64,000 bases of DNA, from assembly GCA_964346295.1 (NCBI GenBank), contig CAYFUG010000004.1, forward strand, positions 532 through 64,531, given 5' to 3'. Positions 5,776 to 51,540 of this stretch are shown one piece after another; positions within the stretch are counted from its first letter, which is position 1; every line of letters begins with the position of its first letter. Source of the DNA: an uncultured Bdellovibrionales bacterium. GTDB taxonomy: Bacteria; Patescibacteriota; Minisyncoccia; Moranbacterales; DUUL01. The position numbers and the translations under genes are program-made. Under the pieces are notes generated by a model. That model was given only the letters and a program-made list of their open reading frames with translations, was not told the DNA's origin and did not search any database.

Positions 5776-6098
5776 GACATTTTCTCCTTTTTTTGGTTTA
5801 TTTTTCTATTTTAACCTCTTTGAATTTCAAAAACAAATCAATAGATCAAAATCAAAGAGGGAAAATTAGAAGAGCGTCGAACAAGTCGACTAGTTTGTTT
5901 AGCAGGGAATTGGATTTTTGTAAATAGCGGGATTTATAGGGCGGCTTTGATAAGAAAAGAGGGCCGCATAGTTGCCTAATTATTAGCTTCCCAGAAGCTT
6001 TAAAGCACATCGGTTTAGGCCGGTGTTTTTTGTTGGAAAAAATAAGATAGAACATTTTCGCCCCAGTAATTTTTTAGCTAAGATCCTTCGACTTTTTT

Positions 6099-6138
6099 CT
6101 TCGCTAGAGCTACGACGGACAAGCCGCTTGGGATGACA
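6099..6138. repeat. Short interspersed repeat, family A (CTTCGC...GCTAC.G..G.CAAG.CGCT.GGGATGACA)
   Basis: Related copies at 34324-34363 and 42283-42322. A related variant lies inside mnmA. Confidence 0.5.
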
Positions 6139-6195
6139 GTTGAAAAATTTTTAGATTTAGAGCGAAATTTATTGAATTACAATTCCATAAATTTG

Positions 6196-32864: not shown

Positions 32865-32924
32865 ATATCCAAAGCTTCATTGTAATCTTTGGGTACTTCA
32901 ACCAAACCAGAAAAGGGGGATGCC

Positions 32925-34002: not shown

Positions 34003-34135
34003 CAAAAGGCCCGAAAGAGCCTGGCCAACGCGCCAAATCTTTCGGAGGGACGAACTTGTTGAACACAACATTTTCGTCCCCTCTACTAGCAACTTAATTT
34101 GAGACTTGATCTTTTATTGAGTTGCTTGAGAGAAT
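34003..34135 (+). repeat. 133-bp direct repeat, copy 2
   Basis: See 32704-32836. There are two substitutions between the copies. Confidence 0.9.
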
Positions 34136-34169: not shown

Positions 34170-34204
34170 AAAAAAGCGCCGGTATTAGTCCCGGCGCTTT
34201 TTTA
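34170..34204. terminator. Strong bidirectional intrinsic terminator (end of module 2; also downstream of gyrA)
   Basis: AAAAAAGCGCCGG-TATTAGTC-CCGGCGCTTTTTT. Confidence 0.8.
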
Positions 34205-34243
34205 TTCTACTGCTTTTAGCTATTCAATTCCCCTAATCCCTCC

Positions 34244-34363
34244 TCCTTTGCTAAAGCTATGGTCGGCAGGCTTTTGTAAGGGGGTTGCTGAGCAGGGAAA
34301 GGCTAAGATCTCTTGACTTCCTCCTTCGTCAAAACTTCGGAGGACAAGACGCTCGGGATGACA
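34244..34363. repeat. Two adjacent family-A short repeats
   Basis: CCTCCTTTGCTAAAGCTATGGTCGGCAGGCTTTTGTAAGGGGG resembles the mnmA-internal copies. CTTCGTCAAAACTTCGGAGGACAAGACGCTCGGGATGACA resembles 42283-42322. Confidence 0.5.
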
Positions 34364-34373
34364 AAGAAAAAAA

Positions 34374-36866
34374 CTACAATACGGCGCTGGCGGCAATCTT
34401 TTCATTTTTCTTAAGCCGCATAATGCGCACTCCTTGAGTAGCGCGATTAAGGACAGAAATCTTGTCAATGGGAGTGCGAATGATTTGTCCTCGGTTAGAG
34501 CTAACAATCAAATCCGCTTTTTCTTCTTGATCTTCTTGAGTGATGACATGAGCCGCTACCAAGGGGCCGGTTTTTTCCGTCACGAAAGCAGTTTTAATGC
34601 CGCTACCAGCGCGAGACTGAGTTTTGTAGCGCTTGAGGGGAGTTCGTTTGCCGTAGCCGTTTTCCATCAGCACTAGCAATTGATCTTCTTTTTTAGCACC
34701 CGCTTCTTCTTTTCTCTTGCGGATCACGCTCATACTGACAATTTCATCCTCCTTCTTAAGGCGGATAGCTTTGACACCAGCGGCAACTCGCCCCATGGGA
34801 CGAGCCTGACTTTCTTTAAAGCGAATTGATTGGCCCTGGTGAGTAGTCAAGATTAAGTCATCGGTGCCATCGGTGAGACCGACCCAACCCAAGGCGTCAT
34901 CTTCGTCCAAGCGAATAGCGATCATGCCTCCGCGACGCACATTCTCAAAATCCTTGAGGGCGGTTTTTTTGATTTTGCCCTTACGAGTTTGCATCACCAT
35001 GTATTGACACCGGGTATCTTTGGAGACAGCTAGGATGGAAGTTATCTTTTCATCTGGGGAGATTTGAATAAAATTGACAATTGCCTGACCTTTGGCGGTA
35101 CGGGAAGACGGGGGAATTTCGTAAGTTTTCAATTTAAAGACTTGGCCACCACTAGTGAAGAAAAACAGATCGTCGTGAGTCATAGTGGCGAGTACTTTGT
35201 CTACGGCGTCGCCTTCTTTAATATTGCCGCCGGCCACTCCTTGACCACCGCGTTTTTGGCTGCGCAAAATGGTGGGGGCGATGCGTTTAATGTAACCATC
35301 CTCAGTAAAGCTGATAATAGTCTCTTCGTTGGCTACCAAATCCTCTTGAGAAAATTCTCCGGCATTGGAATCGATAATTTTAGTGCGGCGTTCGTCGCCG
35401 TACTTCTTTTTGATCTCTAGGAGTTCCTCTTTGATGATACTCAAGATTTTTTGAGGGTCGGCTAGGATAGTTTCTAATTCTTCAATTAGTTTTAGCTTTT
35501 CCGCTAGCTCTTCCTCAATTTTTTGGCGCTCTAGACCGGCGAGGGTTTGCAAGCGCATCTCCAAAATTGCTTCGGCTTGCCGGTCGGAAAATTTGAATTT
35601 GGCCACTAAGTTCTCGTGAGCCTTTTCTTTGGTAGCGGATCCTCGAATAGTCTCAATTACCTCATTAATGTGATCCAGAGCTTTCTTGAGTCCTTCCAGA
35701 ATGTGAGCTCGCTCCTGGGCCTTCCTTAATTCAAATTCAGTACGGCGAGTAACTACCGTTTGGCGGTGAGCTACATAATATTCCAGCACCGACTTCAAGT
35801 TCAGCACTCGGGGCTCCAGGCCATCCACCAAGGCCAGCATATTCAAATGGAAAGTTTTTTGTAGCTCGGTCATAGAGTAGAGCTGGTTTAAAACTTTCTT
35901 GGGAAAAGTATCTTTTTTGAGCTCGACTACAATTCGGACACCATCCTTGTCAGATTCGTCTCGTAAGTCTTTAATGCCTTCAATTTTACCGGTCTTTACT
36001 AACTGGGCAATTTTTTGAATCAGAGTTGCTTTGTTAGTTTGGTAGGTAACTTCGCTTACTACAATTTGGAATTGACCGTTTTTAACTTCCACAATATCTG
36101 CCTGAGCCCTTGTAACCATGCCGCCTCGACCCGTGGAATAAGCGTTCAAAATGTCCTGGCGATTATAGAGAATGCCAGAGGTGGGAAAGTCGGGACCTTG
36201 AATGTATTTAACTAATTCTTCAATGGTGATATCGGGGTTTTCAATATAAGCAGTGATACCATCCACTAGCTCGCTCAGATTATGAGGAGGAATATTGGTA
36301 GCCATCCCAACCGCGATTCCTAGGGCGCCATTCAAAAGTAATTGAGGAAGTTTGGCGGGTAAGGTGGCTGGTTCTTTGCGAGTTCCGTCGTAGTTTTCTT
36401 TCCAATCCACAGTCTCTTTCTCAATATCAAAGAGCATTTCGTCGGAAATAGATTGAAGCTTAGCCTCGGTGTAACGCATGGCGGCTGGGTTGTCGCCGTC
36501 CATAGAACCAAAGTTTCCTTGGCCTTCTACTAGAGGGTAGCGCAAAGAGAAATCTTGAGCCATGCGAACCATGGCAATGTAAACAGAAGCGTCGCCGTGA
36601 GGATGATATTTACCCAATACCTCACCGACTACGGTGGCGCTTTTGCGGAATTTGGCACTAGAACGCAGACCCAGCTTCCACATGGCATATAAGATGCGGC
36701 GTTGCACCGGCTTGAGGCCATCCCGGACATCCGGCAGGGCGCGGGTAACAATTACGCTCATGGCATAAGAGAGATAGGATTCTTCCATTTCCGAGACAAT
36801 GGGGCGAGGTTGGACTTTTCCGATATTGCTAGTTTCGTTGGATTCGTTTTGGTTGTTGGGTTGCAT
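34374..36866 (-). CDS. gyrA: DNA gyrase subunit A
   Basis: [37 protein letters not shown] and AAMRYTE motifs, plus C-terminal beta-pinwheel repeats. Confidence 0.97.
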
Positions 36867-37204
36867 TGGGCTAGTTGTCTAGTTTTTAGTTTATGGTTGG
36901 TAGTTTTAGGCTGGATCTATTAGAGATGCAGAGTGAATCTATTATTGAGTTGTCTGATAATGTATATGTCTAGGAGCACAGATTTGTAAGTTACTATAAA
37001 AATTGGCAAAAAAGTCTGATACAAGGTCTGATATTAAGTGAAGTTAATTTAGTTTAATTTTAGTCTAAAAACACCAAAAAAATCTCCAGAATCAACTTTT
37101 AATTCTGGTGGCTAGCAGAGGCTTAATTACGGTAAGGTATTTTTTAAATTTATCAATTAAATCAATCTCTCCGAATTCTTTCTTAGAGGCAATTGATAAC
37201 TCAA

Positions 37205-37489
37205 TTAATCTTCTAGTTCAGTCAAATCAGATTGATTAGAGAATAAGTAAGTTTTCAATTCCTGAGCAAATTCTGAGTCGTTTTGCTCTAGCCAGCCAAT
37301 CAACATCGCAGCGTGCTCTTTTTCTTCCTGGGCGTTGTGTAGTAAGATTTTCCTAAGATTCTCATCCTGACAAGCGTCTGCTCGTTGTTGGTACCAATCT
37401 ACGGCTTCTAATTCTTCTTTGAGGGAGTCGATAGCTCTTTTGAGCTCCAAGGTTTTGGGAGAAACTTTGTTTCTCTCTTCGTGAAGCAT
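37205..37489 (-). CDS. Small ferritin-like (EncFtn-like) four-helix protein
   Basis: EELEAVDWYQQR...NAQEEKEHAAML pattern (E..H metal-binding helices). Assignment is by resemblance only. Confidence 0.5.
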   Translation of the reverse strand: MLHEERNKVSPKTLELKRAIDSLKEELEAVDWYQQRADACQDENLRKILLHNAQEEKEHAAMLIGWLEQNDSEFAQELKTYLFSNQSDLTELED

Positions 37490-37559
37490 AGTATTGAGTT
37501 TAAGGTTTAGGTTAAATCTATTACAATCATAAAAAATTTAAAGGAAAAAGTAAAGCTAA

Positions 37560-38255
37560 TTAGCGATAAAGGTCTAATACTACTAACCAAATCAAAAGAG
37601 CTTCTCGGCTGTAGCGACGAGCGCGGGTGGTAAGCTTAGTCCACCAAGAGTAGTGGGAACGATCGATAGTGCCCAGGCTGTCGACGGCTAACCCTACACC
37701 TACTAGCCCTAATTTTTGACAATGGTAAATAATCCGGGGTAGATGGTAGTGTTGAGAGATAAAAACCACTTCTCTTTGAGAAGAGAATTTATCAATTTCT
37801 GATCGGCAAGTATCAGGGGTGCTAAGAGCCAGAGGATCCAACTCGATTTTATCTTTGGGAATCCCCGCATTTTCAAGTTCTCTGAACATTACTTGGGCCG
37901 CCCGGGGAGCGTTGGAGGCCACCAAGGAATCAGTTTTATTTTCTTCCCAGATAATTTTTCCTGCTGCTAAGCGCTCCTGGAGAATGGGGGAGGGTTTTTG
38001 ATCGGATCCAAGATTAGCTCCAAAAATTAGAGCAGCGTCTGACTTTTGGAGATCTTCAGGAGAGGTGAAAATTTGGTCTCTAGTAATTTGAAGAAGAATC
38101 AAGTAGGGTGACCAAAAAACAGCTAGAGCCAGGATGGCTAGAAGCAGAAACCAGAAAACCTTTTTTTTAAAGCTTCGTGGGGCAGGTTTCGTGGGGAAAT
38201 CTTTGAGGGAGGGACTCTCTGATTGAGAAAAGAGAGGTTGAGGCTTAGTATCCAT
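37560..38255 (-). CDS. DUF218 (SanA/YdcF/ElyC-like) membrane-anchored protein
   Basis: N-terminal TM. ALIFGANLGSDQKPSPILQERL...LVASN...TPDT pattern. Confidence 0.75.
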   Translation of the reverse strand: MDTKPQPLFSQSESPSLKDFPTKPAPRSFKKKVFWFLLLAILALAVFWSPYLILLQITRDQIFTSPEDLQKSDAALIFGANLGSDQKPSPILQERLAAGKIIWEENKTDSLVASNAPRAAQVMFRELENAGIPKDKIELDPLALSTPDTCRSEIDKFSSQREVVFISQHYHLPRIIYHCQKLGLVGVGLAVDSLGTIDRSHYSWWTKLTTRARRYSREALLIWLVVLDLYR

Positions 38256-38586
38256 GTTGAATTGTCATTAGGATGCCCAGGATAACAAATCCCCCTAAGG
38301 CACCAAAGAGGAATGATTCGGCGGGTGAAAGGACTTTATTGAAGTCATAGCCAACAATAATACAAAAGAAGATTAAAAGAAGCGTCATTCCTACAAAAAT
38401 TTGAAAAATGGGGACTGTTCTGTCGTCCATTTTAATAACAATAGGAAGGAAAATCAGGGCATTTAAAAAAGCTCCCACTAGCCAAAGAAAAGCTGAAAAA
38501 TTATCTTCTCCAGTGAGCTTTAGAGTTGCTATCATTAAACAAGCCAGAGGTGGCAATAAAAAAAATATTCTCATTGCTTTAAGCAA
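38245..38586 (-). CDS. Small integral membrane protein (hypothetical)
   Basis: Four hydrophobic segments. Overlaps the downstream gene start by 11 nt. Confidence 0.5.
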   Translation of the reverse strand: MLKAMRIFFLLPPLACLMIATLKLTGEDNFSAFLWLVGAFLNALIFLPIVIKMDDRTVPIFQIFVGMTLLLIFFCIIVGYDFNKVLSPAESFLFGALGGFVILGILMTIQHGY

Positions 38587-39073
38587 AATGGTTTAAAAAA
38601 GGATTTAAGTTACTTGACAATCAATTGAGAAAAAGATAACTTCTAACTTAATTGCTTTTTATTGAGTCCGCTAAGGCAGCGTAACATTTTTTAGGGAATA
38701 AATCTACCCCCTGAGTAAGGAGGACTGGACTTTCTTGGAAAATGTTGTTAATATTGTAGACATAATTTGTCAGACTTCCTTAGGAGGGTAAATTAATTCC
38801 TGTTTAATTTCTTTAATATGCCTTAAATAAGGGTAAATTTAAAAAAGAAATTTTAATTAGGAAATTGATTAAGAGTTTTAATTTTATGTTAATGATCTTA
38901 ATTTAATTTCTCAAAATTTAATTTCTCATCTCAAAAGGGATTAGTTTATTTTTCTGGAAAATCTGAAATTTAATCTACGACTTGAACTCTGCTTGCTGGC
39001 TAGACTTGCAAAATTTAGAGAAGCAGTTTATAATAAAGTTAGAAATGCAGGAGGGTCAAGTTTTAAAAGAGTT

Positions 39074-39868
39074 ATGATGTTAGATGAAGAATTGATTAAA
39101 CTGGGCCTTTCCGAGAAAGAGGCAAAAGTTTACTTGGGGGCAATTCAATTAGGAGCCTCCACTGTCCAAAAAATTTCTCAGAAGTCTCAAGTTAACCGGG
39201 CGACTACTTATGTGATTATCGAGAGTTTAATGCGAATGGGCTTGATGTCTACTTTCGAGGAAGGTAGAAAAACTTTCTATGTTGCAGAGAAGCCTCGTCG
39301 TTTGGTAGAGTTCTATAAAAATAAGAAGACTCGCCTGGATGAGAAGATTGAAAGGTTAAGCGAGATCGTGCCGGAGTTGAATTCTCTTTATAACGATCAT
39401 TCCGACCGACCCAGAGTGAAGTATTATGAGGGCAGTGAGGGTTTATTAGCGATTTATGATGATTTCGAAAGTACTTTATCAGGGGGGCAAGAGATATTAA
39501 TATTTACTCCCATTGATGATTTCAAGAAAATCAAGAAGCCTCAGATGAGTCAAAGGATTGAGAAGTTTAGAGACAAGAGATTGAAAAAAGGAGTGAGAGC
39601 CAGGACTATATATAGCTCTGCGAGCGGAAGGGACGAAATATTTGAAGAAAGTATTAGAAAATTAGGTGAAGAGATCCTATTTTTAGAAAAAGATAAGAGT
39701 GGTCTCAATGGTTTAGACGCGGGTTTAAATGTTTATGGTAATAAGGTTTTCCTTTTTAGTTACCAAGGCAAGAGAGGCGGAGTTTTGATAGAGAGTCAAA
39801 GCGTGGCCAATCTTTTAGGAGGTATATTTGAAATAGTTTGGTCTCATTTGAAATCTTTAAAAAAGTGA
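39074..39868 (+). CDS. TrmB-family transcriptional regulator (paralog 2)
   Basis: LGLSEKEAKVYLGAIQLGASTVQKISQKSQVNRATTYVIIESLMRMGL. Start moved to the ATG preceded by TTGCAA-17-TATAAT. The track start at 38993 is a TTG. Confidence 0.75.
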   Translation: MMLDEELIKLGLSEKEAKVYLGAIQLGASTVQKISQKSQVNRATTYVIIESLMRMGLMSTFEEGRKTFYVAEKPRRLVEFYKNKKTRLDEKIERLSEIVPELNSLYNDHSDRPRVKYYEGSEGLLAIYDDFESTLSGGQEILIFTPIDDFKKIKKPQMSQRIEKFRDKRLKKGVRARTIYSSASGRDEIFEESIRKLGEEILFLEKDKSGLNGLDAGLNVYGNKVFLFSYQGKRGGVLIESQSVANLLGGIFEIVWSHLKSLKK

Positions 39869-40024
39869 ATTTAATTAATATTAATTAATTTAAACGATAT
39901 GGCACCAGGTTTAAAAATGAAAAGAAGGTCAGTCAAGAAAAGGGCTCAGAAGAAATAATTTCTTTGAGAAACTTTTGTCTATAAAATAAAAGCCGGGTTT
40001 TTGGTCTGGTTTTTATTTTAGGTT

Positions 40025-40882
40025 TTGATTTTTATGCATAATCAAGCGAGAGCAATGCAGGATTTTGAAATGCTAAGAGCACTTCAAGTAATTCAGCTCG
40101 ACTTAGGACCAAATCACTTGGTTGATTTGGGTTTTGTTCGAATTGTAATTTGCCCTTATGCGGATAATGAATTTTGGAACTTTGCAGTTTTTCAGGACGA
40201 AATCACATCATCTCAACTGAGGGAATTGGAGCAAAAATTTCAACAATTAGAAGAAGAGGCAGATAAGGACTTTGCTATTTGTGCTTCGGATAATCAGACT
40301 CAGGTTCTAAGACTAGTGAAGAAGACTGGCTACAAGAATATTCTGCACCGGTCGTTTTTTGTTAAAGACCTGGATGGATTTCAGGAAAGGACGCTTGATA
40401 GCCCTTTCGATAGTTTCAGTGAGAAGCTCCGTTTTGAAAAAGTTCAATCTGATCAGGGCTGGGAGGATTTTGTAAAAGTCTTTGATGAAGCTTTTAGGGA
40501 GGAAAATTCTGCCTCTCTTCATCCGGGGCCGATATATCTGGAGGTAATGGAAGAGGTCTGGCGTAAAGATCAGTCCAAGGGAGGCAAGATTGTTAATCAT
40601 CTCGTTTTGTACCAAGAGGGTGAGCCAGTGGCGGTAGCTTCTAATTTTAATTCTTTGCAGCATCGGATGAGTTATATCTCTAATGTAGGAGTGCATCCTA
40701 GGTTCAGAAAAAAGGGATTGGGAGGTCGGATAGTCAATTTTTGTCTGGCCGATTCTCAAGAATTTGGCAATGAGCAGGCAACCTTAGTAACAGAAAACAA
40801 CGCCGGCTTGAGAAGTTTCTATCGAGGATTGGGATTCCAGAATTTATTTGACTTTAGCTATTATGCCAAAAAATCCAATTAA
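40025..40882 (+). CDS. GNAT-family N-acetyltransferase
   Basis: C-terminal VGVHPRFRKKGLGGRIV acetyl-CoA-binding motif. Confidence 0.75.
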   Translation: MIFMHNQARAMQDFEMLRALQVIQLDLGPNHLVDLGFVRIVICPYADNEFWNFAVFQDEITSSQLRELEQKFQQLEEEADKDFAICASDNQTQVLRLVKKTGYKNILHRSFFVKDLDGFQERTLDSPFDSFSEKLRFEKVQSDQGWEDFVKVFDEAFREENSASLHPGPIYLEVMEEVWRKDQSKGGKIVNHLVLYQEGEPVAVASNFNSLQHRMSYISNVGVHPRFRKKGLGGRIVNFCLADSQEFGNEQATLVTENNAGLRSFYRGLGFQNLFDFSYYAKKSN

Positions 40883-42125
40883 AAAGCCTAAGATATTGGT
40901 GGCGCTGAGCGGAGGGGTAGACTCGGCGGTGGCGGCCCTGCTTCTTCTGGAGCAGGGTTTTGAGGTGCAAGGGATTCATTTTTTGCTGAGTAGCGAGAAA
41001 TTGATTAGCGCAGAAAAAGTTCGGTTGATTGCTAATGAATTGGGGGTCGAGCTAGAAGTAAGAGATATTTCTCGGGAGTTTCAAAAAGAGGTGGTGGATA
41101 GTTTTGCTAAAACTTATCAAAAAGGAGCGACGCCTAACCCTTGCGTGATTTGCAACCGGAAGGTAAAATTTAAGCAGTTACTCCAGGCTCGCGAGGAGCT
41201 AGGCTGTGATCTAGTAGCCACCGGACATTACGCACGGATTGCTGCTGGTGAGGGCTCCCTGAAGGCGATCTCCACTCAATCCTCTCAATCTCTCCATCTT
41301 CGCCAGGACTACAGTCGACAGGCTCTACAAAAGGGGGAGACTGAGGGTTTTTTTCTTCAAAAGGCCAAGGATCAGCGCAAGGATCAGTCCTATTTTCTCT
41401 ATCGATTAACCCAGGAGCAGTTGCAATTTTGTCGCTTTCCCTTGGGGGAGCACTTCAAAGATTGGGTCAAGCAGCGGGCTAAAGATTTAAATTTAGGCCT
41501 AGAAAGGCAAGGAGAGTCCCAAGACATTTGTTTTTTTGAGCCAGAGGAAAGCCTGCGAGATTTTCTTGGAAGGCGCTCTAAACAAAACTTTACAGAAGCT
41601 TCAATAATTTCGGACAAAGGTGAGCCTTTGGGGAAATGCGAGGGTTTGGAGTTGTTCACGATTGGCCAGCGCAAGGGCCTAAATCTCAGTGGGGGGCCTT
41701 GGTATGTTTTGAATAGAGATTTCACCAAGCGGCAGCTGGTAGTCACTCGCGATTCGGAAAGCCCGGATTTTTGGCAAAAGGGAATTTTTATCGAGCAAGT
41801 CAACTGGATTAATCAATCTCCTCAGCCGGGAAAATGGTACGACTTGCAAATTCGTTATCAAGGAAAAGTTTATCAAGGGATGCTTGAGAAATTAAAAGAG
41901 GGGCTTCGAGGGCAGGGCGGGGGATATTCCGTCCCCACTCCTACGGGGGTTGCTCAATCCCCCCAGCCCCTCCTCCTTCGCCAGGACTACAGTCGACAGG
42001 CTTTACGAAAGGGGGAGCCTAGCTGGAAGGTTAGCTTGAAGGAGGCGGCCCGGGCGGTAGCAGCGGGGCAATCGTTGGTGGTGTATGAGGGTAGTCAAGT
42101 TTTAGGGGGAGGAATCATCTTCTAG
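40863..42125 (+). CDS. mnmA: tRNA 2-thiouridine(34) synthase MnmA, with two in-frame repeat insertions
   Basis: ILVALSGGVDSAVAA PP-loop, NPCVICN, ATGHYARI, KDQSYFL and ESQDICF motifs. Start at the ATG (MPKNPIKKPK). Confidence 0.9.
   Translation: MPKNPIKKPKILVALSGGVDSAVAALLLLEQGFEVQGIHFLLSSEKLISAEKVRLIANELGVELEVRDISREFQKEVVDSFAKTYQKGATPNPCVICNRKVKFKQLLQAREELGCDLVATGHYARIAAGEGSLKAISTQSSQSLHLRQDYSRQALQKGETEGFFLQKAKDQRKDQSYFLYRLTQEQLQFCRFPLGEHFKDWVKQRAKDLNLGLERQGESQDICFFEPEESLRDFLGRRSKQNFTEASIISDKGEPLGKCEGLELFTIGQRKGLNLSGGPWYVLNRDFTKRQLVVTRDSESPDFWQKGIFIEQVNWINQSPQPGKWYDLQIRYQGKVYQGMLEKLKEGLRGQGGGYSVPTPTGVAQSPQPLLLRQDYSRQALRKGEPSWKVSLKEAARAVAAGQSLVVYEGSQVLGGGIIF
41298..41339 (+). repeat. 42-bp repeat inside mnmA, copy 1
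   Basis: CTTCGCCAGGACTACAGTCGACAGGCTCTACAAAAGGGGGAG, encoding LRQDYSRQALQKGE. Confidence 0.8.
41976..42017 (+). repeat. 42-bp repeat inside mnmA, copy 2
   Basis: 40/42 identical to copy 1, encoding LRQDYSRQALRKGE. Confidence 0.8.
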
Positions 42126-42282
42126 TTAGTAGTTTTTGATTTTTAGTTCTTAGTTAATTTCAGAAGGGAATAATTTTTTGGCGTTGCTAACTAAAAATAC
42201 ACAGCTATTGTCATTCCGACTGAAGCGAAGCGAAATGGAGGAATCTTAGCTGAAAAATAATATAAGATCCCTCGACTCCCTC

Positions 42283-42322
42283 CTTCGCCAAGGCTACGGC
42301 GGGCAAGGCGCTCGGGATGACA
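42283..42322. repeat. Family-A short repeat (intergenic copy)
   Basis: CTTCGCCAAGGCTACGGCGGGCAAGGCGCTCGGGATGACA. A second repeat type, GTCATTCCGACTGAAGCGAAGCGAAATGGAGGAATC, lies at about 42208-42245. Confidence 0.5.
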
Positions 42323-42370
42323 AACTAAGAATTTTAGAAGCTATACTTTATTGGCAATACCAATTTTTTT

Positions 42371-42871
42371 ATGAAGAAGTTTTTTCAACGGCATCGCAAA
42401 TTATTTTTGATCGTATTTGTTTGCTTGGTATTTTTGTGGAGTGGCTGGCAAGTTGCCAAGTGGGGGTTTAGAGAACTAGCACAAAGAGGAATTTTGCAAG
42501 GTGAGCAAGTTCACGCAGTTAGTTTTTTTGTTAACCTCAACGAATTGGAAGTGGCGACCGGTGAAGGAATTGATCGGGGTCAGATCGAAATTTTTTGGAA
42601 CGGCGAGCGGGTTTTTGCTGAAGGTAGAGTTTTGAAGTCGAATTTCAACAAGCGAGAAGTGCGTTATAAATACGGCCCTCAATCGTTTGGGGTCAAGTAC
42701 CGAGGAAAGGAATTAAGCAAGTCAGAGGATATTAAATTTATTGATTACAAAGCTAATAATTGGGATTGTAGCCACTATAAATTTGATATAGTTCAAGAAG
42801 AAAATGGCAAGGTGGCAGCTTATTTTTCTTCTGATTATGGCCACAGTAAAATAAAATTTACCCAAAATTAA
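42371..42871 (+). CDS. Membrane-anchored hypothetical protein
   Basis: ORF with a single N-terminal TM segment. No motif recognised. Confidence 0.55.
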   Translation: MKKFFQRHRKLFLIVFVCLVFLWSGWQVAKWGFRELAQRGILQGEQVHAVSFFVNLNELEVATGEGIDRGQIEIFWNGERVFAEGRVLKSNFNKREVRYKYGPQSFGVKYRGKELSKSEDIKFIDYKANNWDCSHYKFDIVQEENGKVAAYFSSDYGHSKIKFTQN

Positions 42872-43021
42872 TTTGATTTTATGAACGAGTTTTTTGAATT
42901 TTTTATCAAGCGATTGTTATGGGTTTGGATGCCGCTCTATGCACTGTATAGAGTCATTCTTGACTTTATTGAAGAGCGAGAACAGACCTGAGAGTTTTTT
43001 GAGTTGCTTTAATCAAGAAAT

Positions 43022-44218
43022 TTGACTTCAAAGAAAAAAAAACAGACCAGTTTTTTAGGGGACAAGAAGGTGGCTTTAGTCCACGATTTTTTGTTATACT
43101 GGGGGGGAGCGGAGGCCACTTTGCAAGTGTTGGCCAAAATGTTTCCTCAGGCGCCGATTTACACCCTGCTTCAGGATGAGCAGTTTACCAAAAAGCACTT
43201 CAGGGGGCGAGAAATCCGGACCTCGTTTTTACAGAAAATTCCCCGCTGGATCCGCAAAAAACACACTCGCTTATTGCCGCTAATGCCAACCGCCATTGAG
43301 TCGCTCAATTTGCGGGATTATGACTTGGTAATTTCCTCCTCTTCGGCTTTTGCCAAGGGAATTGTGGTGAAGCCTAAGACCACCCATGTTTGCTACATGC
43401 ACGCCCCTATGCGTTATGTCTGGGACTACTATCACCAGTATTTTCAAGAGCGCTTTGGCAATCGAGCTAAAATTTTTACCCGGACTTTTCTCAACTACTT
43501 GCGAACTTGGGATCGAGCCAGTGCCGACCGGGCTGATCATCTGGTTGCCAATTCTCGTTACACTGCTCGGCGAATCGAAAAATATTATCGTAGAGAATCC
43601 ATGGTGATTTATCCCCCAGTGGAGGTGGAAAAATTCGCCCTCAGTCCGGACAAGGCAAATTCCAGTATTTCTTCTAGCTCTGATTTGATAGAGAAGCAAA
43701 ATCAGGCCAGGAGAGGTAGCTATTTTTTGACAACGGGGCGCTTAGCGACTTATAAGCGGGTAGATCTTTTGATTGAGGCTTTTCAGAAGCTCAAGTTGCC
43801 GCTAGTGATAGTGGGTGATGGCCCGGAGCGTAAAAAGCTAGAGAAATTAGCCCAAGGGAACAGCAAGATAAAAATTTTAGGCTGGCAAAGTGAGGAAAAA
43901 TTAATTCGACTTTATCAAAATTCCCGGGCCTTTGTTTGTGCCACCGAAGATGATTTCAATATCACTTGCGTGGAGGCAATGGCAGCCGGAACGCCGGTAA
44001 TTGCCTTAAAAAAGGGCGGCGTGCAGGAAACAGTAATCGAAGGTCAGACGGGAATATTTTTCCAGGAGGCACGGTTGGAGCTAGTGGTGGATGGAGTGCG
44101 GCGGTTTATTGAAAAAGAGGCTGATTTTGACTCGGAGGTGATTCAGGCTCGAGCGAGGGAGTTTTCGAGGGAGAGATTTGAGAAGGAGATGCGAAAGTAC
44201 TTGACTTCCATTTTTTGA
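43022..44218 (+). CDS. Glycosyltransferase family 4 (GT-B, group 1)
   Basis: VALVHDFLLYWGGAE at the N-terminus and EDDFNITCVEAMAAGTPVIALKKGGVQETV (E-x7-E region). The start could be the TTG at 43022 or the GTG at the KKV-ALVH position. Confidence 0.85.
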   Translation: MTSKKKKQTSFLGDKKVALVHDFLLYWGGAEATLQVLAKMFPQAPIYTLLQDEQFTKKHFRGREIRTSFLQKIPRWIRKKHTRLLPLMPTAIESLNLRDYDLVISSSSAFAKGIVVKPKTTHVCYMHAPMRYVWDYYHQYFQERFGNRAKIFTRTFLNYLRTWDRASADRADHLVANSRYTARRIEKYYRRESMVIYPPVEVEKFALSPDKANSSISSSSDLIEKQNQARRGSYFLTTGRLATYKRVDLLIEAFQKLKLPLVIVGDGPERKKLEKLAQGNSKIKILGWQSEEKLIRLYQNSRAFVCATEDDFNITCVEAMAAGTPVIALKKGGVQETVIEGQTGIFFQEARLELVVDGVRRFIEKEADFDSEVIQARAREFSRERFEKEMRKYLTSIF

Positions 44219-44320
44219 AAATTTTGGTGTCAAAATCTCCGCTACTCCCTCACCGTAACTCTCAGTACGCCTCGCTCGCTGCTCGATTTCTCCTAAAAAT
44301 TTCCTAAAAAATGAAAGTCC
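44203..44320. repeat. 118-bp MITE-like palindromic element, family B, overlapping the GT4 stop
   Basis: TIRs GACTTCCATTTTTTGAAAATTTT / AAAATTTCCTAAAAAATGAAAGTCC. Core CTCACCGTAACTCTCAGTACG. Confidence 0.75.
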
Positions 44321-44417
44321 TTAAATATTTCTCGGATAGATGATAACTAGATTAAAATAAGACCCTGGATATTCTTTTTGGAAATTCCGGAATGGCAGGG
44401 TTTTAATTACAATCAAT

Positions 44418-44768
44418 ATGGGGATTCAAGTGGAATTTAATCCGGATTTGGCACTGAGAAATATTCAGCATTTTAATTCGGGGAAGCGCCAAAAAGAAGA
44501 GTGCATCCCAAAGCCTTTAGAAGAGGGTGGAGTCTATAACTTTCTGAAAGAAGGCCAGCGCAATTATTGGCTAGAAGGCGAGTTGCCGCTTTTAGAAACG
44601 GAAGGCGGGGGTCAGCTCTCTCGGCCTCGGGCCAGTATTGTGATTTTAGAGGCGACACACCTTTTAAAAAATGGTAAAATCTATACTAAGGGTAAGTATC
44701 AAGTGAAGAAGATCTTAGAAGAAGGGGAGGGGATTTATTTTGAAGGATTTAGTAAGGTGAGGAGTTAA
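44418..44768 (+). CDS. Hypothetical protein (116 aa)
   Basis: ORF only. Confidence 0.5.
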   Translation: MGIQVEFNPDLALRNIQHFNSGKRQKEECIPKPLEEGGVYNFLKEGQRNYWLEGELPLLETEGGGQLSRPRASIVILEATHLLKNGKIYTKGKYQVKKILEEGEGIYFEGFSKVRS

Positions 44769-44923
44769 TTTTCAAACCCGCTTTCATCTTAGGGCTTCAG
44801 CGAGGCGCAGCAATTTTTAATATTTTAATGATTGAATTTTAAATAAGCAGAGCAGGAAAAACAAAAACAGCCCTTTTAGGGCTGCTTGAAAGCTTATTTT
44901 TATTCTAAATATAGCAAAGCAAT

Positions 44924-44999
44924 AGAAGGGGGAACACTCGTTAAAATGTCTTCTTCTGCTATAATGTCGGTAGACATTTTAACGAGTGTTCCCCCTTCT
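44924..44999. repeat. Perfect 28-bp inverted repeat with a 20-nt loop that contains an extended -10 (TGCTATAAT)
   Basis: AGAAGGGGGAACACTCGTTAAAATGTCT (44924-44951) and its exact reverse complement (44972-44999). TATAAT at 44960-44965. Confidence 0.9.
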
Positions 45000-45191
45000 G
45001 TCAATACCCCTGAAAACAAAATTGTAATTGATAGCAGCAGTGAAATTTGTATTAAAAGTAACAACTTTGAAAGTTTCAGCATAAGTGATTTATTAGAAAA
45101 TATTAAGATTCTGATTAAGCATATTTTAGCATATTCAAGGGAAAAATCAAGGGTAAAAATCGATTCTAAGCGAGTAATTTGTCAAGCAAAG

Positions 45192-46835
45192 ATGAAAACA
45201 AAAACAAAAGCTAGTTCGCAGTCAGAAGAGGGGGGAATTTGGGATAGTTTTTGGGCTTGGGAGGCCCAGTTTAAAGAAGCTTTTTTTCGCAAAAGAAAAT
45301 TGCTGAGTGGGATGATTTTGGGACTGGTGCTGGTGGCCGGATTGCTTTTACGGCTAGGCTTCGCCCCTGCTAATCTGGCGGCAAATCCCGCTTCGGAGCC
45401 TTTTGTTTCCATTCTCCAAGAGCGCACTTTTTGGTACGATGAGGCGTTTACCGGAATTTTGCTAAAAGCCTCCTGGAAAGAGATGAATCAGATGATCTAT
45501 GACGATGTTCACCCTCCCCTTTATTACTGGTTGGCCAAGCCCTGGAGCGCAGCCTTTGACTATTCTCCGGTGGGGATTCGCTCTTTCTCTTTACTGTTTG
45601 GAATGCTGACAATAGTCTCTTTGTTTTGGATCGGATCGCGACTATTTGGCCCTAAGGCGGGTCGGTTGGCGGCAGCCTTGGCAGCCTTTTCGCCTTTTGC
45701 AGTGCAATATTCTCAAGAAGCTCGAATGTATGCCTTACTGGGCTTTTTGTTTTTGTGGGCTAGTTGGTTTTTCTATCGGGCTTTAGACAAAAATCGCCTC
45801 CAGGATTGGCTGATCTGGGGAGTTTTAGGCGGGCTTTGTTTTTACACTCACTACTTATCGTTGTTCTTTTTCGTTTCTTTTTATATTGCCTTTTATTTTT
45901 ACCAAGTGCTATTTCTCCAGGGCGGCTATTTTTGGTCCCTGTGGGGACAAAAGCGGCCGCTATTTTGGTTGGGAGTAGCGATAATAGGTGGCTTTTTTGC
46001 CAGTTGGTTGAAAGTTTTTTGGGTCCATTTTACCAAAACAGACGGGGACTTAGGCTGGATTGCGCCTTCTAACCTCAGTGATTTACCAGGAACACTGCAG
46101 ATTTTCCTTTTTGGTCATCCTCCGGGAGCAGGAGGCACGCCCGATGCTAATCCGTTAAAATTCTTTTTTGATCAAAGCTCGGTAGGACTTCTCGTCCTAG
46201 TGGCTATGGCGGTTTTGATTTTTTGCGCTTGGATTAAAAAGCGGCGTCGGCCGGAAATTCTAGTCTTGGGGACGATTTCCTTGGGCGCCTTACTGCTTTT
46301 AATTATCATCTCTCATTTTGACATTAAGTTTTATGTGGCCCGTTACATGATGCCAGCGGCAGTGATTTTTTACCTGCTTTTGAGTGGTTTGATAGTTTCT
46401 GCTACTCGGTGGCGACCAGGGCTGAAGGCAGTGATTTTTCTAGTGGCTTATTTGGCTCTCTTGTCAACTCTTCAACCGATTGACTACGCTCGGGGTTGGG
46501 CTAGGCTATATCAAGTGGATCAAGAAGTGGATTATCTCAAAAGCCGAATTCTGATAGCCAATGGTCCTTTTGAATACACTTCGGCTCGTTACTATTTTGG
46601 TCAAGAGCGAGTACGGTTTTTCAGCCCGGGTAATCTGGGAGAGGATTTTTCTGGTTGGGTGGTGGTGGGGAACCACAATCGCCTCAGTAGCAAAGAAGAG
46701 CTTCGGGCTAGCCCAAACTTTACAATTGTAGATCGGCAGTGTGAGTGGGAGGAGCTGAACTTAGAGGGCTATTCGATGAATATGAAGAGGTACGGGGAGA
46801 TGAGATTGTGCGTGCCGGGAACTTCCAAATTTTGA
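45192..46835 (+). CDS. Glycosyltransferase family 39 / ArnT-PMT-like membrane glycosyltransferase
   Basis: Polytopic membrane protein with DEAFTGIL...DVHPPLYYWL and SPFAVQYSQEARMY. Start moved to ATG 45192. The track ORF begins at 44886, across the palindrome. Confidence 0.8.
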   Translation: MKTKTKASSQSEEGGIWDSFWAWEAQFKEAFFRKRKLLSGMILGLVLVAGLLLRLGFAPANLAANPASEPFVSILQERTFWYDEAFTGILLKASWKEMNQMIYDDVHPPLYYWLAKPWSAAFDYSPVGIRSFSLLFGMLTIVSLFWIGSRLFGPKAGRLAAALAAFSPFAVQYSQEARMYALLGFLFLWASWFFYRALDKNRLQDWLIWGVLGGLCFYTHYLSLFFFVSFYIAFYFYQVLFLQGGYFWSLWGQKRPLFWLGVAIIGGFFASWLKVFWVHFTKTDGDLGWIAPSNLSDLPGTLQIFLFGHPPGAGGTPDANPLKFFFDQSSVGLLVLVAMAVLIFCAWIKKRRRPEILVLGTISLGALLLLIIISHFDIKFYVARYMMPAAVIFYLLLSGLIVSATRWRPGLKAVIFLVAYLALLSTLQPIDYARGWARLYQVDQEVDYLKSRILIANGPFEYTSARYYFGQERVRFFSPGNLGEDFSGWVVVGNHNRLSSKEELRASPNFTIVDRQCEWEELNLEGYSMNMKRYGEMRLCVPGTSKF

Positions 46836-46994
46836 ACCCCGCACTAGAGCTTTGCTCAATGCGGGACAAGAATCTCGTTGTTGCCGGTTGCGTTTCGAAC
46901 TCATCGTACCTTTAGTGCGACTCGTCCGAAGCCTCACCCTTCTTTCCCACTTTCCGCTAAGGCTACAGAAGGGACAGATAAAACTTGAAAGTCC
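46819..46994. repeat. Composite MITE-like element overlapping the GT39 stop
   Basis: Left end GAACTTCCAAATTTTGAAC. Right part GCTACAGAAGGGACAGATAAAACTTGAAAGTCC is shared with 25152-25178. Confidence 0.5.
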
Positions 46995-47017
46995 TGTCTT
47001 ATCCGGAAATATTCCAT

Positions 47018-47098
47018 TGATAAAATTTCCAGGAAAAACAATCAGTGGAGTGATATAAATTCCTTGATTTTTTATCAGTGGAGTGATAAAATTTCCAG
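47018..47098 (+). repeat. 33-bp tandem repeat (about 2.5 units) immediately upstream of the AAA+ ATPase start
   Basis: GATAAAATTTCCAGG at 47018 and 47084. ATCAGTGGAGTGATA at 47040 and 47073. Confidence 0.8.
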
Positions 47099-47102
47099 GT
47101 AA

Positions 47103-48377
47103 ATGATTAATTCTAGAAAAATGATTTCAAGAGAAATTTATCCTAAGCTTTATAGTTGGGCGAAAAAGGGCAAGATTATTATTTTGAAGGGACCTCGTCA
47201 GGCGGGGAAAACGACCCTGATGAATTTTTTATTAGACAATCTTAAAAAAGAAGGTCAAAATACCGCTTATTTGTTGGCAGATGACATTGATAAGCAAGAG
47301 TTGTTTAAGTCTCCAGCCGCTCTGGAATTTTACTTGAGTCAGAAGTATAATTTTCCCGAAAAACATCTTTTTCTTTTTATTGATGAGTTTCAATACATTG
47401 ATCAGGCGGGACTCTTCATTAAAAACTTTTTTGATAAGCATCAGGGCCAGGTAAATTTAATTTTAAGTGGGTCTAGTTCCCTGGAAATCACTCAAAATCA
47501 AGAGTTTTTGACCGGTCGGGCGGTGGAGTTTGAAATGGGAACTGTTAATTTTCGAGAGTTTTTTAATTTTCGAGAAGGAACTCGGATTAAAAAATTTCCC
47601 CTTGAAAGCCAGGATGATTTAAGTAATTTTTATAAATCCTTTGAGAGTAAGCTAAGCCTCGCCTTAAAGAATTTTTTAGTTTTTGGGGGGTATCCTGAGG
47701 TGGTGGAAACCTCATTAGAGGAAGATAAGAAAGTAATTTTAAAGTCGATTGTTAAGAAATATTTAGAAAAGGATGTGGCGGGTTTTTTGCAAATCGAAAA
47801 TATCACTGCCTTTAACAACTTAACGAAGATTTTGGCTTCTCAAATTGGTAATTTAGTTAATATTAGCGAACTGGCTAATACGGTAAACTTATCCATTAAC
47901 ACCGTTAAAAGATATCTGGATGTTTTGCAAGGGACATATGTCTTTAGTCTGGTGCGACCATATGCTAAGAACATTCGCAAGGAGCTAAGCAAAATGCCTA
48001 AAGTTTATATTCAAGACTTGGGGGCAAAAAATTATCTTTTAGGTGATTACAAAGACAATTTATTTGGTGGCAAGGAAGTGGAAAATTTTGTTTTTTTAGG
48101 GATGGCTAATAATTTAAGTTCAGAAGGAGTTAACTTCTATCGAACCAAGGGAGGCTCAGAGGTCGATTTTATTTTAGAAAAAGAGGGTGGCTTGAATTTG
48201 ATAGAAGTTAAATATCGGTCGGTTTCCAAGATCAAAGAGCCTCTGGCATTCGCCAATTTTTCGGAAAATTATGGAGACAGAGTTCAAAACAAGATTGTGA
48301 TTTCCAAAGATGTTTTAAAAAAAGATGGGAATATTTACTTTATTCCGGCGGTGCTTTGGCCCTGGATAGAGTTATAG
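47103..48377 (+). CDS. AAA+ ATPase of the AAA_14/DUF4143 type
   Basis: Walker A KGPRQAGKTT, Walker B LFIDEFQ. Paralog of the ORFs at 6258 and 7623. Confidence 0.9.
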   Translation: MINSRKMISREIYPKLYSWAKKGKIIILKGPRQAGKTTLMNFLLDNLKKEGQNTAYLLADDIDKQELFKSPAALEFYLSQKYNFPEKHLFLFIDEFQYIDQAGLFIKNFFDKHQGQVNLILSGSSSLEITQNQEFLTGRAVEFEMGTVNFREFFNFREGTRIKKFPLESQDDLSNFYKSFESKLSLALKNFLVFGGYPEVVETSLEEDKKVILKSIVKKYLEKDVAGFLQIENITAFNNLTKILASQIGNLVNISELANTVNLSINTVKRYLDVLQGTYVFSLVRPYAKNIRKELSKMPKVYIQDLGAKNYLLGDYKDNLFGGKEVENFVFLGMANNLSSEGVNFYRTKGGSEVDFILEKEGGLNLIEVKYRSVSKIKEPLAFANFSENYGDRVQNKIVISKDVLKKDGNIYFIPAVLWPWIEL

Positions 48378-48419
48378 CTTTCAGGTGGTTTTTTAGGCAA
48401 ATTAAATTAAAACAAAAAT

Positions 48420-49652: not shown

Positions 49653-49754
49653 AAATTTTGGTGTTGCAAGCTGCGTTTGGCACTCACCGTACCCTTCAGT
49701 ACGGCTCGCACCAAGCCTCGCTTGCGCCTAAAAATTTCCTAAAATTTGGAAGCC
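49637..49754. repeat. 118-bp MITE-like palindromic element, family B, overlapping the NuoF-like stop
   Basis: TIRs GGCTTCCAAATTTTGAAAATTTTGGTG / CCTAAAAATTTCCTAAAATTTGGAAGCC. Core CTCACCGTACCCTTCAGTACGG. Confidence 0.8.
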
Positions 49755-49815
49755 TTAATCCAGCGGTTATTTTTAGTGGGAGATTTTTACAAGTTAACTT
49801 TTAAAATTTATTAAA

Positions 49816-50349: not shown

Positions 50350-50373
50350 TTTAATTAAAATCAAAAATTAAAA

Positions 50374-51525: not shown

Positions 51526-51540
51526 CGACAATCTAAGAGA

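What the first reader, a model, noticed from the sequence alone, without database searches (positions are those of the whole stretch)
41298..42017. Two in-frame copies of an interspersed repeat inside mnmA
A 42-bp sequence occurs twice within the MnmA ORF (41298-41339 and 41976-42017) with 40/42 identity. The copies encode LRQDYSRQALQKGE and LRQDYSRQALRKGE. They sit inside longer insertions relative to the canonical MnmA layout. The first lies between ATGHYARI and KDQSYFL. The second lies before the C-terminal GQSLVVYEG...GGGII. Related sequences occur intergenically (34244-34285, and more distantly 42283-42322, 34324-34363 and 6099-6138). A repeat family therefore appears to have colonised a housekeeping enzyme twice without breaking the frame.
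Basis: partly seen in the sequence, partly recalled or inferred. Interest (0 to 1): 0.55.

Follow-up and report, generated by a model that had tools for sequence, protein, structure and literature searches.

The report
Repeat element inserted twice in mnmA
A short, hairpin-forming repeat also found between genes has been copied twice, in frame, into the tRNA-modifying gene mnmA of an uncultured Patescibacteria-like bacterium. This is a real example of "selfish DNA inside a working gene", a phenomenon already known from Rickettsia and some other bacteria.

Summary
The 42-mer occurs at 41298-41339 and 41976-42017 with 2 mismatches. The repeat extends to 68 nt (41275-41342 and 41953-42020, 85% identity). 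A third, intergenic copy lies at 34223-34290.

The ORF 40863-42125 is MnmA. Its closest ortholog (71% aa identity) lacks both segments. So do the solved MnmA structures and, for site 2, all 120 listed homologs. The segments are insertions of 34 aa and 38 aa, both multiples of three and stop-free. They are G+C-richer than the gene (0.56 and 0.65 vs 0.47). An independent assembly reproduces them, catalytic motifs are intact, and dN/dS is about 0.10. In the AlphaFold model they are low-confidence excursions from an otherwise confident MnmA fold.

Best reading: an RPE-, REP- or MITE-like palindromic repeat tolerated in permissive loops. How it is mobilised is unknown.

- The loop after ATGHYAR is a recurrent insertion site in Patescibacteria MnmAs. 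Two other lineages carry demonstrable repeat elements there.
- The roughly 27-nt core recurs in metagenomic contigs of 40-72% G+C, and a variant of it in viral contigs. It often sits inside real genes.

Verdict: new member of a known kind, moderate interest.

The parts
40863..42125 (+). mnmA (tRNA 2-thiouridine synthase), 420 aa, an intact ORF that carries both insertions.
   Evidence: Pfam PF03054, PF20259 and PF20258 match. PDB 2DER matches at E=4.8e-54. The PP-loop SGGVDS and the conserved Cys94, Cys97 and Cys223 are intact. dN/dS against L001 is 0.10. The AF2 model has pLDDT 86.9 and matches 2HMA and 2DET at TMt (TM-score normalised to target length) 0.87-0.89.
41241..41342 (+). Insertion 1 (34 aa, residues 127-160), in the loop between ATGHYARI and KDQSYFL of the catalytic domain. 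Boundaries come from the alignment and are approximate. An alternative definition is 93 nt bounded by the direct repeat TGAGGG at 41249-41254 and 41342-41347.
   Evidence: A codon alignment with L001 shows a clean 34-codon gap. G+C is 0.56 against 0.47 for the rest of the gene. pLDDT is 54-61, with two short predicted helices.
41275..41342 (+). A2: the 68-nt repeat unit inside insertion 1. It has a C-rich 5' arm, a conserved core and a G-rich 3' arm.
   Evidence: It is 58/68 identical to A3. The arms can pair over 9 bp.
41901..42014 (+). Insertion 2 (38 aa, residues 347-384), in a beta-turn of the C-terminal beta-barrel domain. Its 5' 52 nt (41901-41952) are G+C-rich, self-complementary and of unknown origin.
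   Evidence: A codon alignment with L001 shows a 38-codon gap. Site 2 is not expanded in the other listed homologs. G+C is 0.65. pLDDT is 44-48 and the segment is predicted as coil.
41953..42020 (+). A3: the 68-nt repeat unit inside insertion 2.
41298..41324 (+). The 27-nt core CTTCGCCAGGACTACAGTCGACAGGCT, identical in A2 and A3. The second copy is at 41976-42002.
   Evidence: There are 0 differences in the core against 10 in the 42 flanking positions (Fisher p=0.01). Related cores occur in 16 public loci. A variant occurs in 8 viral loci.
41976..42002 (+). Second copy of the identical 27-nt core, inside A3.
34223..34290 (+). A1: the intergenic copy of the same repeat unit. It lies between a terminator-like palindrome (34170-34203) and the B2 unit, in the convergent spacer upstream of the gyrA stop codon.
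   Evidence: It matches A3 at 47/68 and A2 at 42/68, against a null maximum of 36-37. It carries a TAA in the frame that mnmA uses.
42209..42322 (+). B3: a B-type doublet just downstream of mnmA. It consists of two inverted hairpin units with termini GTCATTCCGA...TCGGGATGAC. The right unit (42263-42322) carries the related core CCTTCGCCAAGGCTACGGCGGGCAAGGC.
   Evidence: Sequence, repeat family D4, and nhmmer. The L001 spacer is too short to hold it. The only two differences between the two assemblies lie in and just after its 3' end.
34304..34372 (+). B2: a single B-type unit directly after A1, ending next to the gyrA stop codon.
6079..6147 (+). B1: a single, intergenic B-type unit.

Best explanation
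Two copies of a short (about 70 nt) imperfectly palindromic dispersed repeat have been inserted into mnmA of a Patescibacteria-like bacterium. The unit has a C-rich arm, a conserved core of about 27 nt and a G-rich arm.

Shown:
- The insertions add 102 and 114 nt.
- They contain no stop codon in the frame used.
- They leave the ORF and all catalytic motifs intact.

Predicted:
- They are translated as 34-aa and 38-aa excursions.
- One leaves a variable loop of the catalytic domain.
- The other leaves a beta-turn of the C-terminal barrel.
- The enzyme fold is unchanged.

Inferred:
- The copies are selfish or neutral passengers that survive because these two sites tolerate extra peptide. They are not new functional domains.
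- This is the logic of Rickettsia palindromic elements and of intragenic REPs and MITEs.
- The element spreads as a non-autonomous unit mobilised in trans. No mobilising enzyme, terminal inverted repeat pair or consistent target duplication was identified, so the transposition chemistry is unknown.
For: - The repeat is real and non-random.
- An empty-site ortholog lacks both segments.
- Solved structures lack them.
- Site 2 is expanded in no other listed homolog.
- An intergenic copy exists in the same window.
- Insert G+C is 0.56 and 0.65 against 0.47 for the gene.
- Three forward frames and one reverse frame of the unit are open.
- An independent assembly (L002) is identical across mnmA.
- dN/dS is 0.10.
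- In the AF2 model the inserts have pLDDT 44-61 and the rest is mostly above 90. The fold matches 2HMA and 2DET at TMt 0.87-0.89.
- In L019 the same MnmA loop carries a B-type doublet. An intergenic copy at 91-95% identity lies 1.3 kb away.
- In L029 the loop carries an A-type-like unit (E=1.8e-4).
- Among 117 Patescibacteria MnmAs this loop ranges from a mode of 19 aa (33 proteins; two have 15) up to 79 aa, with unrelated repeat-like sequences.
- The core lies in frame inside PALP, Fmt, GT2, SLH and DUF2238 genes of other organisms.
- In-frame repeat insertions are documented for RPEs (PMC10969869) and for REPs (PMC3733652).
Against: - Only 64 kb of the genome is visible. Only three A-type copies are seen, so 'dispersed family' rests on one intergenic copy plus relatives in other organisms.
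- No transposase or RAYT (the REP-associated tyrosine transposase that mobilises REPs) was found among the window ORFs scanned or in the genes of the L002 overlap.
- The hairpins are not more stable than shuffled sequence. The arm pairing shows no covariation.
- The TGAGGG repeat flanking insertion 1 could be chance. Insertion 2 has no such repeat, and flanking direct repeats are inconsistent across loci.
- Translation of the inserts and activity of the enzyme are not shown.
Confidence: 0.8

Rival explanations
1. There was one colonisation followed by intragenic copying. One unit entered mnmA from outside. The second arose from it by local template switching, ectopic gene conversion or short-range transposition, not by an independent arrival.
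For: A2 and A3 are each other's closest relatives (85% identity, against 62-69% to A1). They share a CAGGACTACAGTCGAC variant matched by no genome, metagenome or viral hit. They lie 678 nt apart, in the same orientation and frame. Their 27-nt core is identical.
Against: The sequences upstream of the shared 68 nt differ completely between the two insertions. The rest of the genome is unseen, where other copies of this sub-family could lie. This rival is a variant of the main explanation, not its opposite.
Confidence: 0.35
2. The segments are ancestral parts of this lineage's MnmA. They were lost in the L001 lineage, and the intergenic match is a pseudogene fragment or coincidence.
For: Only one close ortholog is available as an empty site. 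The loop at site 1 is variable in length across the phylum.
Against: Site 2 is unexpanded in the other listed homologs and in all solved structures. The inserts at site 1 in other lineages are not homologous to each other. The two segments resemble each other and an intergenic repeat, not any protein family. Their G+C is elevated.
Confidence: 0.04
3. The inserts have been co-opted. The repeated peptide (QS.Q.L.LRQDYSRQAL.KGE) or the RNA hairpins have a function in this MnmA, for example partner binding, tRNA contact, mRNA stability or translational pausing.
For: The 27-nt core is perfectly conserved between the two copies while the flanks diverged (p=0.01). Insertion 1 is predicted to form two short helices. 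A2 is followed by a run of seven T, which is a terminator-like layout.
Against: Core conservation is equally explained by a DNA-level constraint, since the same core is conserved in non-coding copies and in other frames elsewhere. Outside the core, most differences change the amino acid. The peptide has no relatives among 1.8 billion representative proteins. The inserts have low pLDDT. No terminator-like site was scored in the gene.
Confidence: 0.1
4. The duplicated segment is an assembly artefact, created by repeat-induced mis-joining of reads.
For: The repeats are short enough to confuse k-mer assemblers. The only two differences between the two assemblies fall in and just after a neighbouring repeat (B3).
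Against: A separate MEGAHIT contig from ERZ922771 is identical over the whole gene, with 2 mismatches in 17,070 nt and none in mnmA. Both inserts keep the frame. Both are flanked on each side by contiguous MnmA sequence that aligns with orthologs.
Confidence: 0.02

Closest known systems
Rickettsia palindromic elements (RPE; Ogata et al. 2000, Science 290:347, as summarised in PMC10969869)
   Same: Both are short palindromic dispersed repeats found between genes and inside unrelated housekeeping genes. Both are inserted in frame without stop codons. Both are proposed to sit where the protein fold tolerates them. [quoted passage not shown]
   Different: RPEs are about 100-150 bp and belong to Rickettsia-specific sequence families. 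Here the host phylum is different (Patescibacteria-like). The unit is about 70 nt. It is built around a core of about 27 nt that also occurs in unrelated lineages. Only two genic copies are seen in 64 kb.
REPs and REPINs, including intragenic GTAG- or CGTC-tagged REPs (Di Nocera et al. 2013, PMC3733652)
   Same: Both are small hairpin repeats that lie mostly downstream of genes and between convergent genes, as singletons or inverted doublets (B3 and the L019 element are doublets). Both are occasionally found inside ORFs, including RNA-modification genes. REPs are sometimes nested within other palindromes. A GTAG tetranucleotide is present on the minus strand of the core.
   Different: In canonical REPs, GTAG directly precedes a 6-13 bp stem with a 2-3 nt loop. 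Here GTAG lies in the loop of the hairpin and is followed only by a 4-5 bp mini-stem. No RAYT gene was found in the window.
MITEs that form in-frame fusions (ERIC, BOX, Anabaena MITEs; PMC10969869, PMC2229807)
   Same: These are non-autonomous small elements that can lie inside genes and extend the host ORF.
   Different: MITEs are defined by terminal inverted repeats, target-site duplications and a parent IS. None of these could be established here.

Membership tests
Rickettsia palindromic elements (RPE) | A short palindromic repeat present in several copies, both intergenic and intragenic. | tested here: met
   There are two genic copies and one intergenic copy in the window. An A-type-like copy lies in another CPR (Candidate Phyla Radiation) genome.
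Rickettsia palindromic elements (RPE) | Genic copies are in frame, stop-free and leave the host ORF intact. | tested here: met
   Inserts of 102 and 114 nt leave an intact 420-aa ORF with conserved motifs.
Rickettsia palindromic elements (RPE) | Insertion sites are compatible with the protein fold (surface loops). | tested here: met
   In the AF2 model the inserts are low-confidence excursions and the core fold matches 2HMA and 2DET. The distance to bound tRNA was not measured.
Rickettsia palindromic elements (RPE) | Sequence homology to the RPE-1 to RPE-10 consensus, and occurrence in Rickettsia. | not tested
   No RPE consensus was available in the tools. The host is Patescibacteria-like. 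This element is therefore filed as 'works like', not as a member.
REP/REPIN (RAYT-mobilised) | A GTAG (or CGTC) tag at one end of a 6-13 bp stem with a short loop. | tested here: not met
   GTAG is present on the minus strand of A2, A3, B1 and B3, and of every public hit, because the search patterns required CTAY or CTAC. It lies inside the hairpin loop and is followed only by CCTTGGCGAAGG, a 4-bp stem. The criteria come from PMC3733652.
REP/REPIN (RAYT-mobilised) | A cognate RAYT (Y1 HUH transposase) gene in the genome. | tested here: inconclusive
   None was found among the 28 window ORFs scanned against Pfam or in the L002 gene table. The rest of the genome is unavailable.
REP/REPIN (RAYT-mobilised) | Mostly extragenic, downstream of ORFs or between convergent genes, as singlets and inverted doublets. 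| tested here: met
   A1, B1, B2 and B3 are intergenic. A1 and B2 lie in a convergent spacer, and B3 is an inverted doublet.
MITE | Terminal inverted repeats. | tested here: inconclusive
   The A units have a C-rich arm and a G-rich arm that can pair over 9 bp. Pairing is 83% of cells against 61-69% in slid controls, with no covariation. The B doublets have clear termini GTCATYCCGA...TCGGRATGAC.
MITE | Target-site duplication of fixed length. | tested here: inconclusive
   TGAGGG flanks insertion 1 at 93-nt spacing (sequence). Insertion 2 has none. Across 26 core-containing sites only 4 have a flanking direct repeat of 8 nt or more.
MITE | A parent insertion sequence with the same ends. | tested here: inconclusive
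   No transposase was found in the window. The loci carrying the motif share no common recombinase.

The most novel reading that the evidence does not exclude
The real mobile or selected unit may be the core of about 27-35 nt itself, (C)CTTCGCYARRRCTAYRG..GRCARGC. It is nearly identical in CPR bacteria, in contigs of 66-72% G+C and, in variant form, in viral contigs. It is flanked by different, lineage-specific hairpin arms. In the B3 doublet it is present in only one arm. It sits in frame inside PALP, Fmt, GT2, SLH, DUF2238 and MnmA genes. That would make it an ultra-small, sequence-conserved insertion module. It would be spread across phyla, nest in hairpin loops and permissive protein loops, and be mobilised by an unidentified trans-acting enzyme. 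This would be a kind of element smaller than, and distinct from, REPs, MITEs and RPEs.
Probability: 0.2. Interest if true: 0.75.

Novelty: new member of a known kind. Interest (0 to 1): 0.5.

Why it matters
In-frame 'selfish DNA in genes' has been a textbook curiosity of Rickettsia. This finding shows the same logic in a streamlined, uncultured Patescibacteria-like genome. It hits an essential-pathway tRNA-modification enzyme twice. The same MnmA loop has been hit repeatedly and independently across the phylum.

There are two practical consequences. First, insertions of this kind inflate and distort CPR protein alignments, domain calls and structure predictions, so they should be recognised as repeat-derived. 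Second, MnmA offers a natural series of 'loop-insertion mutants' for asking how much extra peptide a small-genome enzyme tolerates.

The conserved core of about 27 nt shared across very different genomes is an unexplained lead. It may point to a still unknown mobilisation system.

Tried and rejected
1. Peptide-level search for the insert in other proteins. The word-indexed search found no candidates. The exhaustive HMMER search of 1.84 billion representatives gave one irrelevant Gly/Pro-rich hit. Short peptides are below the power of these tools, so in-frame copies elsewhere could only be found by DNA pattern.
2. Known RNA families. Rfam found nothing on the repeats in the window (only RNase P at 55953-56363) or on six motif-bearing loci.
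3. Thermodynamic structure. The folds of the inserts and of A1 are no more stable than shuffles on either strand (z from -0.6 to +0.9).
4. Intrinsic terminator inside mnmA. None was scored.
5. Target-site duplications. These were inconsistent.
6. A common neighbouring recombinase. A serine recombinase lies next to the motif in L008 but not in L005, L016 or L013.
7. 'Empty' palindromes without the core in the window. None was found beyond chance.
8. BLAST of the core against annotated plasmids and phages. Only chance-level matches appeared.
9. Exact boundaries of the fmt insertion in L014 from relatives. The nearest empty-site relatives are only 76-79% identical, which is too far for nucleotide-level boundaries.
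10. Alignment of the spacer downstream of mnmA with L001. It is too divergent to define the ends of B3.
11. Intein, intron or programmed-bypass readings were considered and rejected. The inserts are far too short for inteins or group I and II introns, and they match no RNA family.

Full report
**Observation**

No shuffle produced a match. Ungapped extension gives 68-nt units at 41275-41342 (A2) and 41953-42020 (A3), with 58/68 identical.

A third unit, A1, lies at 34223-34290. It matches A3 at 47/68 and A2 at 42/68, whereas the best match in composition-preserving shuffles of the window was 36-37/68. A1 is intergenic. It sits between a terminator-like palindrome and the stop codon of gyrA.

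They are 76-84% identical to each other. They share only a core of about 30 nt with the A units.

In a self-comparison of the whole window, the mnmA pair is the only pair of repeats lying inside a confidently coding region. The only other intra-ORF hit is a 76-nt palindrome at the probably miscalled start of ORF 44886-46835. Every other repeat family is intergenic or overlaps gene 3' ends.

**The host gene**

ORF 40863-42125 encodes a 420-aa MnmA.
- All three Pfam MnmA domains match.
- E. coli MnmA (2DER) matches at E=4.8e-54, in three blocks separated by the two segments.
- The best named homologs are all from Patescibacteria groups, at 39% identity or less.
- The window also has a SecD-PPIase fusion. 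The same architecture appears on another Patescibacteria contig.

I therefore treat the organism as Patescibacteria-like (CPR, the Candidate Phyla Radiation).

**The segments are insertions**

The closest ortholog is P0002, on JGI contig L001. It is 71% identical over 348 aligned residues and has clean gaps of 34 codons (window 41241-41342) and 38 codons (41901-42014).

Of the 120 best homologs listed for the window's MnmA, I measured the GHY-to-KDQSYF distance in 117 and the RY-to-GQS distance in 119.
- Site 2 is 30-33 residues in most homologs (at most 44) and is expanded only in the window's protein. The other apparent outliers were checked or are attributed to the motif regex.
- Site 1 has a mode of 19 residues (33 proteins; two have 15) and is longer in more than half of the homologs, up to 79 residues. 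The sequences there are unrelated to one another.

Other properties of the inserts:
- They are G+C-richer (0.56 and 0.65) than the rest of the gene (0.47).
- All three forward frames and one reverse frame of A2 and A3 are open. A1 carries a TAA in the frame that mnmA uses.

**Not an artefact, not a pseudogene**

An ENA MEGAHIT contig from a microbial-mat metagenome (L002) covers window 35056-52125 with two mismatches in 17,070 nt. Neither mismatch is in mnmA.

The PP-loop and the conserved cysteines are intact. dN/dS against L001 is about 0.10, although dS is near saturation.

AlphaFold2 with a 55-sequence alignment gives pLDDT 86.9. Most 10-residue blocks average above 90. Residues of about 131-160 have pLDDT 54-61 with two short helices, and residues of about 345-385 have pLDDT 44-48 as coil. 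The model matches 2HMA and 2DET at target-normalised TM-scores (TMt) of 0.87-0.89. Insertion 1 leaves the variable hairpin after the ATGHYAR strand. Insertion 2 leaves a turn between two strands of the C-terminal barrel.

**Anatomy of the unit**

Each A unit has three parts: a C-rich 5' arm (CCCTCCTCCTT), a core, and a G-rich 3' arm (AAGGGGGAG).
- The arms can form about 9 base pairs in 83% of cells, against 61-69% for slid controls. With four sequences there is no covariation.
- The folds are not more stable than shuffles.
- Between A2 and A3, all ten differences lie outside a 27-nt identical core (0/26 against 10/42, p=0.01). Most of them change the amino acid.

This points to a constraint on the DNA or RNA, not on the peptide.

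Insertion 1 is bracketed by TGAGGG at 93-nt spacing, which is a possible 6-bp target duplication. Insertion 2 has no equivalent.

Insertion 2 carries 52 further G+C-rich, self-complementary nucleotides upstream of A3 whose origin I could not trace.

All six A and B units are on the plus strand. This is the G-rich strand throughout the window (GC skew +0.12 to +0.23). The sample is small, but this fits an orientation bias.

**Relatives elsewhere**

A degenerate pattern covering A1-A3 found the following:
- One hit in 185,579 species genomes. It is a Peribacteria MAG, where the core forms both arms of a palindrome of about 150 nt.
- Fifteen JGI metagenome loci with G+C from 0.40 to 0.72.

All of these hits carry the YAARGCTAC form of the core. 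None carries the CAGGACTAC form seen in A2 and A3.

A B-like version of the core occurs in eight viral contigs.

Several hits lie inside genes confirmed by Pfam, and the motif is read in different frames and orientations:
- a PLP-dependent enzyme
- methionyl-tRNA formyltransferase
- a family-2 glycosyltransferase
- an SLH-domain protein
- a DUF2238 membrane protein

The fmt case is from a Peribacteria lineage. The insert is present in relatives at 96-99% identity and absent at 76-79%.

The sequences flanking the core differ between lineages and often form their own hairpin around it.

Cultured-organism plasmids and phages contain no significant match. Rfam has no family for it.

**MnmA as a recurrent target**

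In L019 (GCA_030629775.1) the same loop holds a 160-nt B-type doublet with termini GTCATTCCGAC...CTCGGGATGAC. An intergenic copy at 91-95% identity lies 1.3 kb upstream.

In L029 (GCA_000299275.1) the loop holds an A-type-like unit (nhmmer E=1.8e-4) together with other simple repeats.

Many other homologs have inserts at this loop that read like translated hairpin repeats. Calling them 'classic CPR intergenic repeats' rests on my own recollection, not on a tool result. Only L019 and L029 were checked at the DNA level.

**Interpretation**

The best-supported explanation is that mnmA carries two passenger copies of a non-autonomous palindromic repeat. They are retained because they are in frame, stop-free and located in permissive loops. 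This is the logic described for Rickettsia palindromic elements and for intragenic REPs and MITEs (PMC10969869, PMC3733652, PMC2229807).

I file it as 'works like' those families, not as a member.
- The canonical REP layout (GTAG followed by a 6-13 bp stem) is not met.
- The MITE criteria (terminal inverted repeats, target duplication, parent IS) are inconclusive.
- RPE homology was not testable.

No transposase was found among the 28 window ORFs scanned or in the L002 gene table. No common recombinase accompanies the motif elsewhere.

Whether the two copies arrived independently, or one was copied from the other, cannot be decided from 64 kb.

I found no paper describing repeat-element insertions in Patescibacteria protein genes in the searchable library. 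The library's CPR reviews mention only the known insertions in rRNA genes.

**Verdict**

The phenomenon is a new member of a known kind, in a new phylum and with a new repeat family. It is of moderate interest.

The unexplained part is the core of about 27 nt that is conserved across very different genomes and is often intragenic. That is the lead worth following.

Noticed in passing
window 24122-24260, 24975-25079, 44200-44324, 49634-49758, 58849-58968, 23470-23505; also L001:2235-2335: This is the most abundant repeat family in the window. The units are about 120 nt and 73-89% identical. They start at or within the last codons of genes. They contain a TTTTGAAAATTT palindrome and a CACCGTAC...GTACGG hairpin. 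A copy sits in the relative L001 at a position where the window has none, so the family is shared and its locations differ.
   Followed up: partly
window 9046-9105, 9128-9187, 28878-28937, 59120-59179: Four copies of a 60-nt promoter-like module, TTGACA-N17-TATGCTACAAT, followed by a conserved GTCAAGCTAAGAAAAGG. Two of them are in tandem, 82 nt apart.
   Followed up: no
window 32704-32836 and 34003-34135: A 133-nt direct repeat (98.5% identical) brackets ORF 32889-33971 (360 aa, no Pfam match). It lies immediately upstream of the A1 and B2 repeat cluster. It looks like a recent duplication or a cassette boundary.
   Followed up: partly
window 42317 and 42329 (3' end of B3 and the base run just after it): These are the only two differences between the window and the independent contig L002 over 17,070 nt. 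One falls in the 3' terminus of the B3 repeat and the other 7 nt beyond it. The cause is either real micro-heterogeneity at the repeat or read mis-recruitment between repeat copies.
   Followed up: partly
whole window: There is a very strong and uniform GC skew (+0.12 to +0.23 in 8-kb windows). Most genes, and all six A and B repeat units, are on the G-rich strand.
   Followed up: partly
L003:275-400; L005:4880-5058; L008:10990-11150; L013 (minus strand) around 1750-1800; L016 (minus strand) around 100-200: A larger conserved element of about 150 nt: GATTGG..., then the core, then a strong GGCGGCGG...CCGCCGCC hairpin. In L003 a second core follows in inverted orientation. It is shared by contigs of 40-60% G+C from different samples. 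Three contigs end inside it, which fits an assembly-breaking palindromic mobile element. It has no Rfam match.
   Followed up: partly
L014:3895-4824 (Peribacteria fmt) compared with P0123: A second in-frame segment (TIVRHAEPLDRLGVNEVEARRKET) in the same fmt gene is replaced by a different sequence in a relative that is 96% identical. This looks like a very recent indel of another repeat-like sequence in a housekeeping gene.
   Followed up: no
window 44924-44999: A 76-nt near-perfect palindrome (82% self-complementary) lies upstream of the PMT_2 glycosyltransferase gene. It falls inside the mechanically listed ORF 44886-46835 but outside the gene as called on L002.
   Followed up: no
window 47018-47128: Three tandem 33-nt units (TGATAAAATTTCCAGG...CAGTGGAGTGATA) lie just upstream of ORF 47103-48377, an AAA_14/DUF4143 ATPase.
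   Followed up: no
window 55953-56363: Bacterial RNase P RNA class A (144.6 bits). It is the only Rfam family found in the window. No tRNA genes were found in 64 kb.
   Followed up: yes
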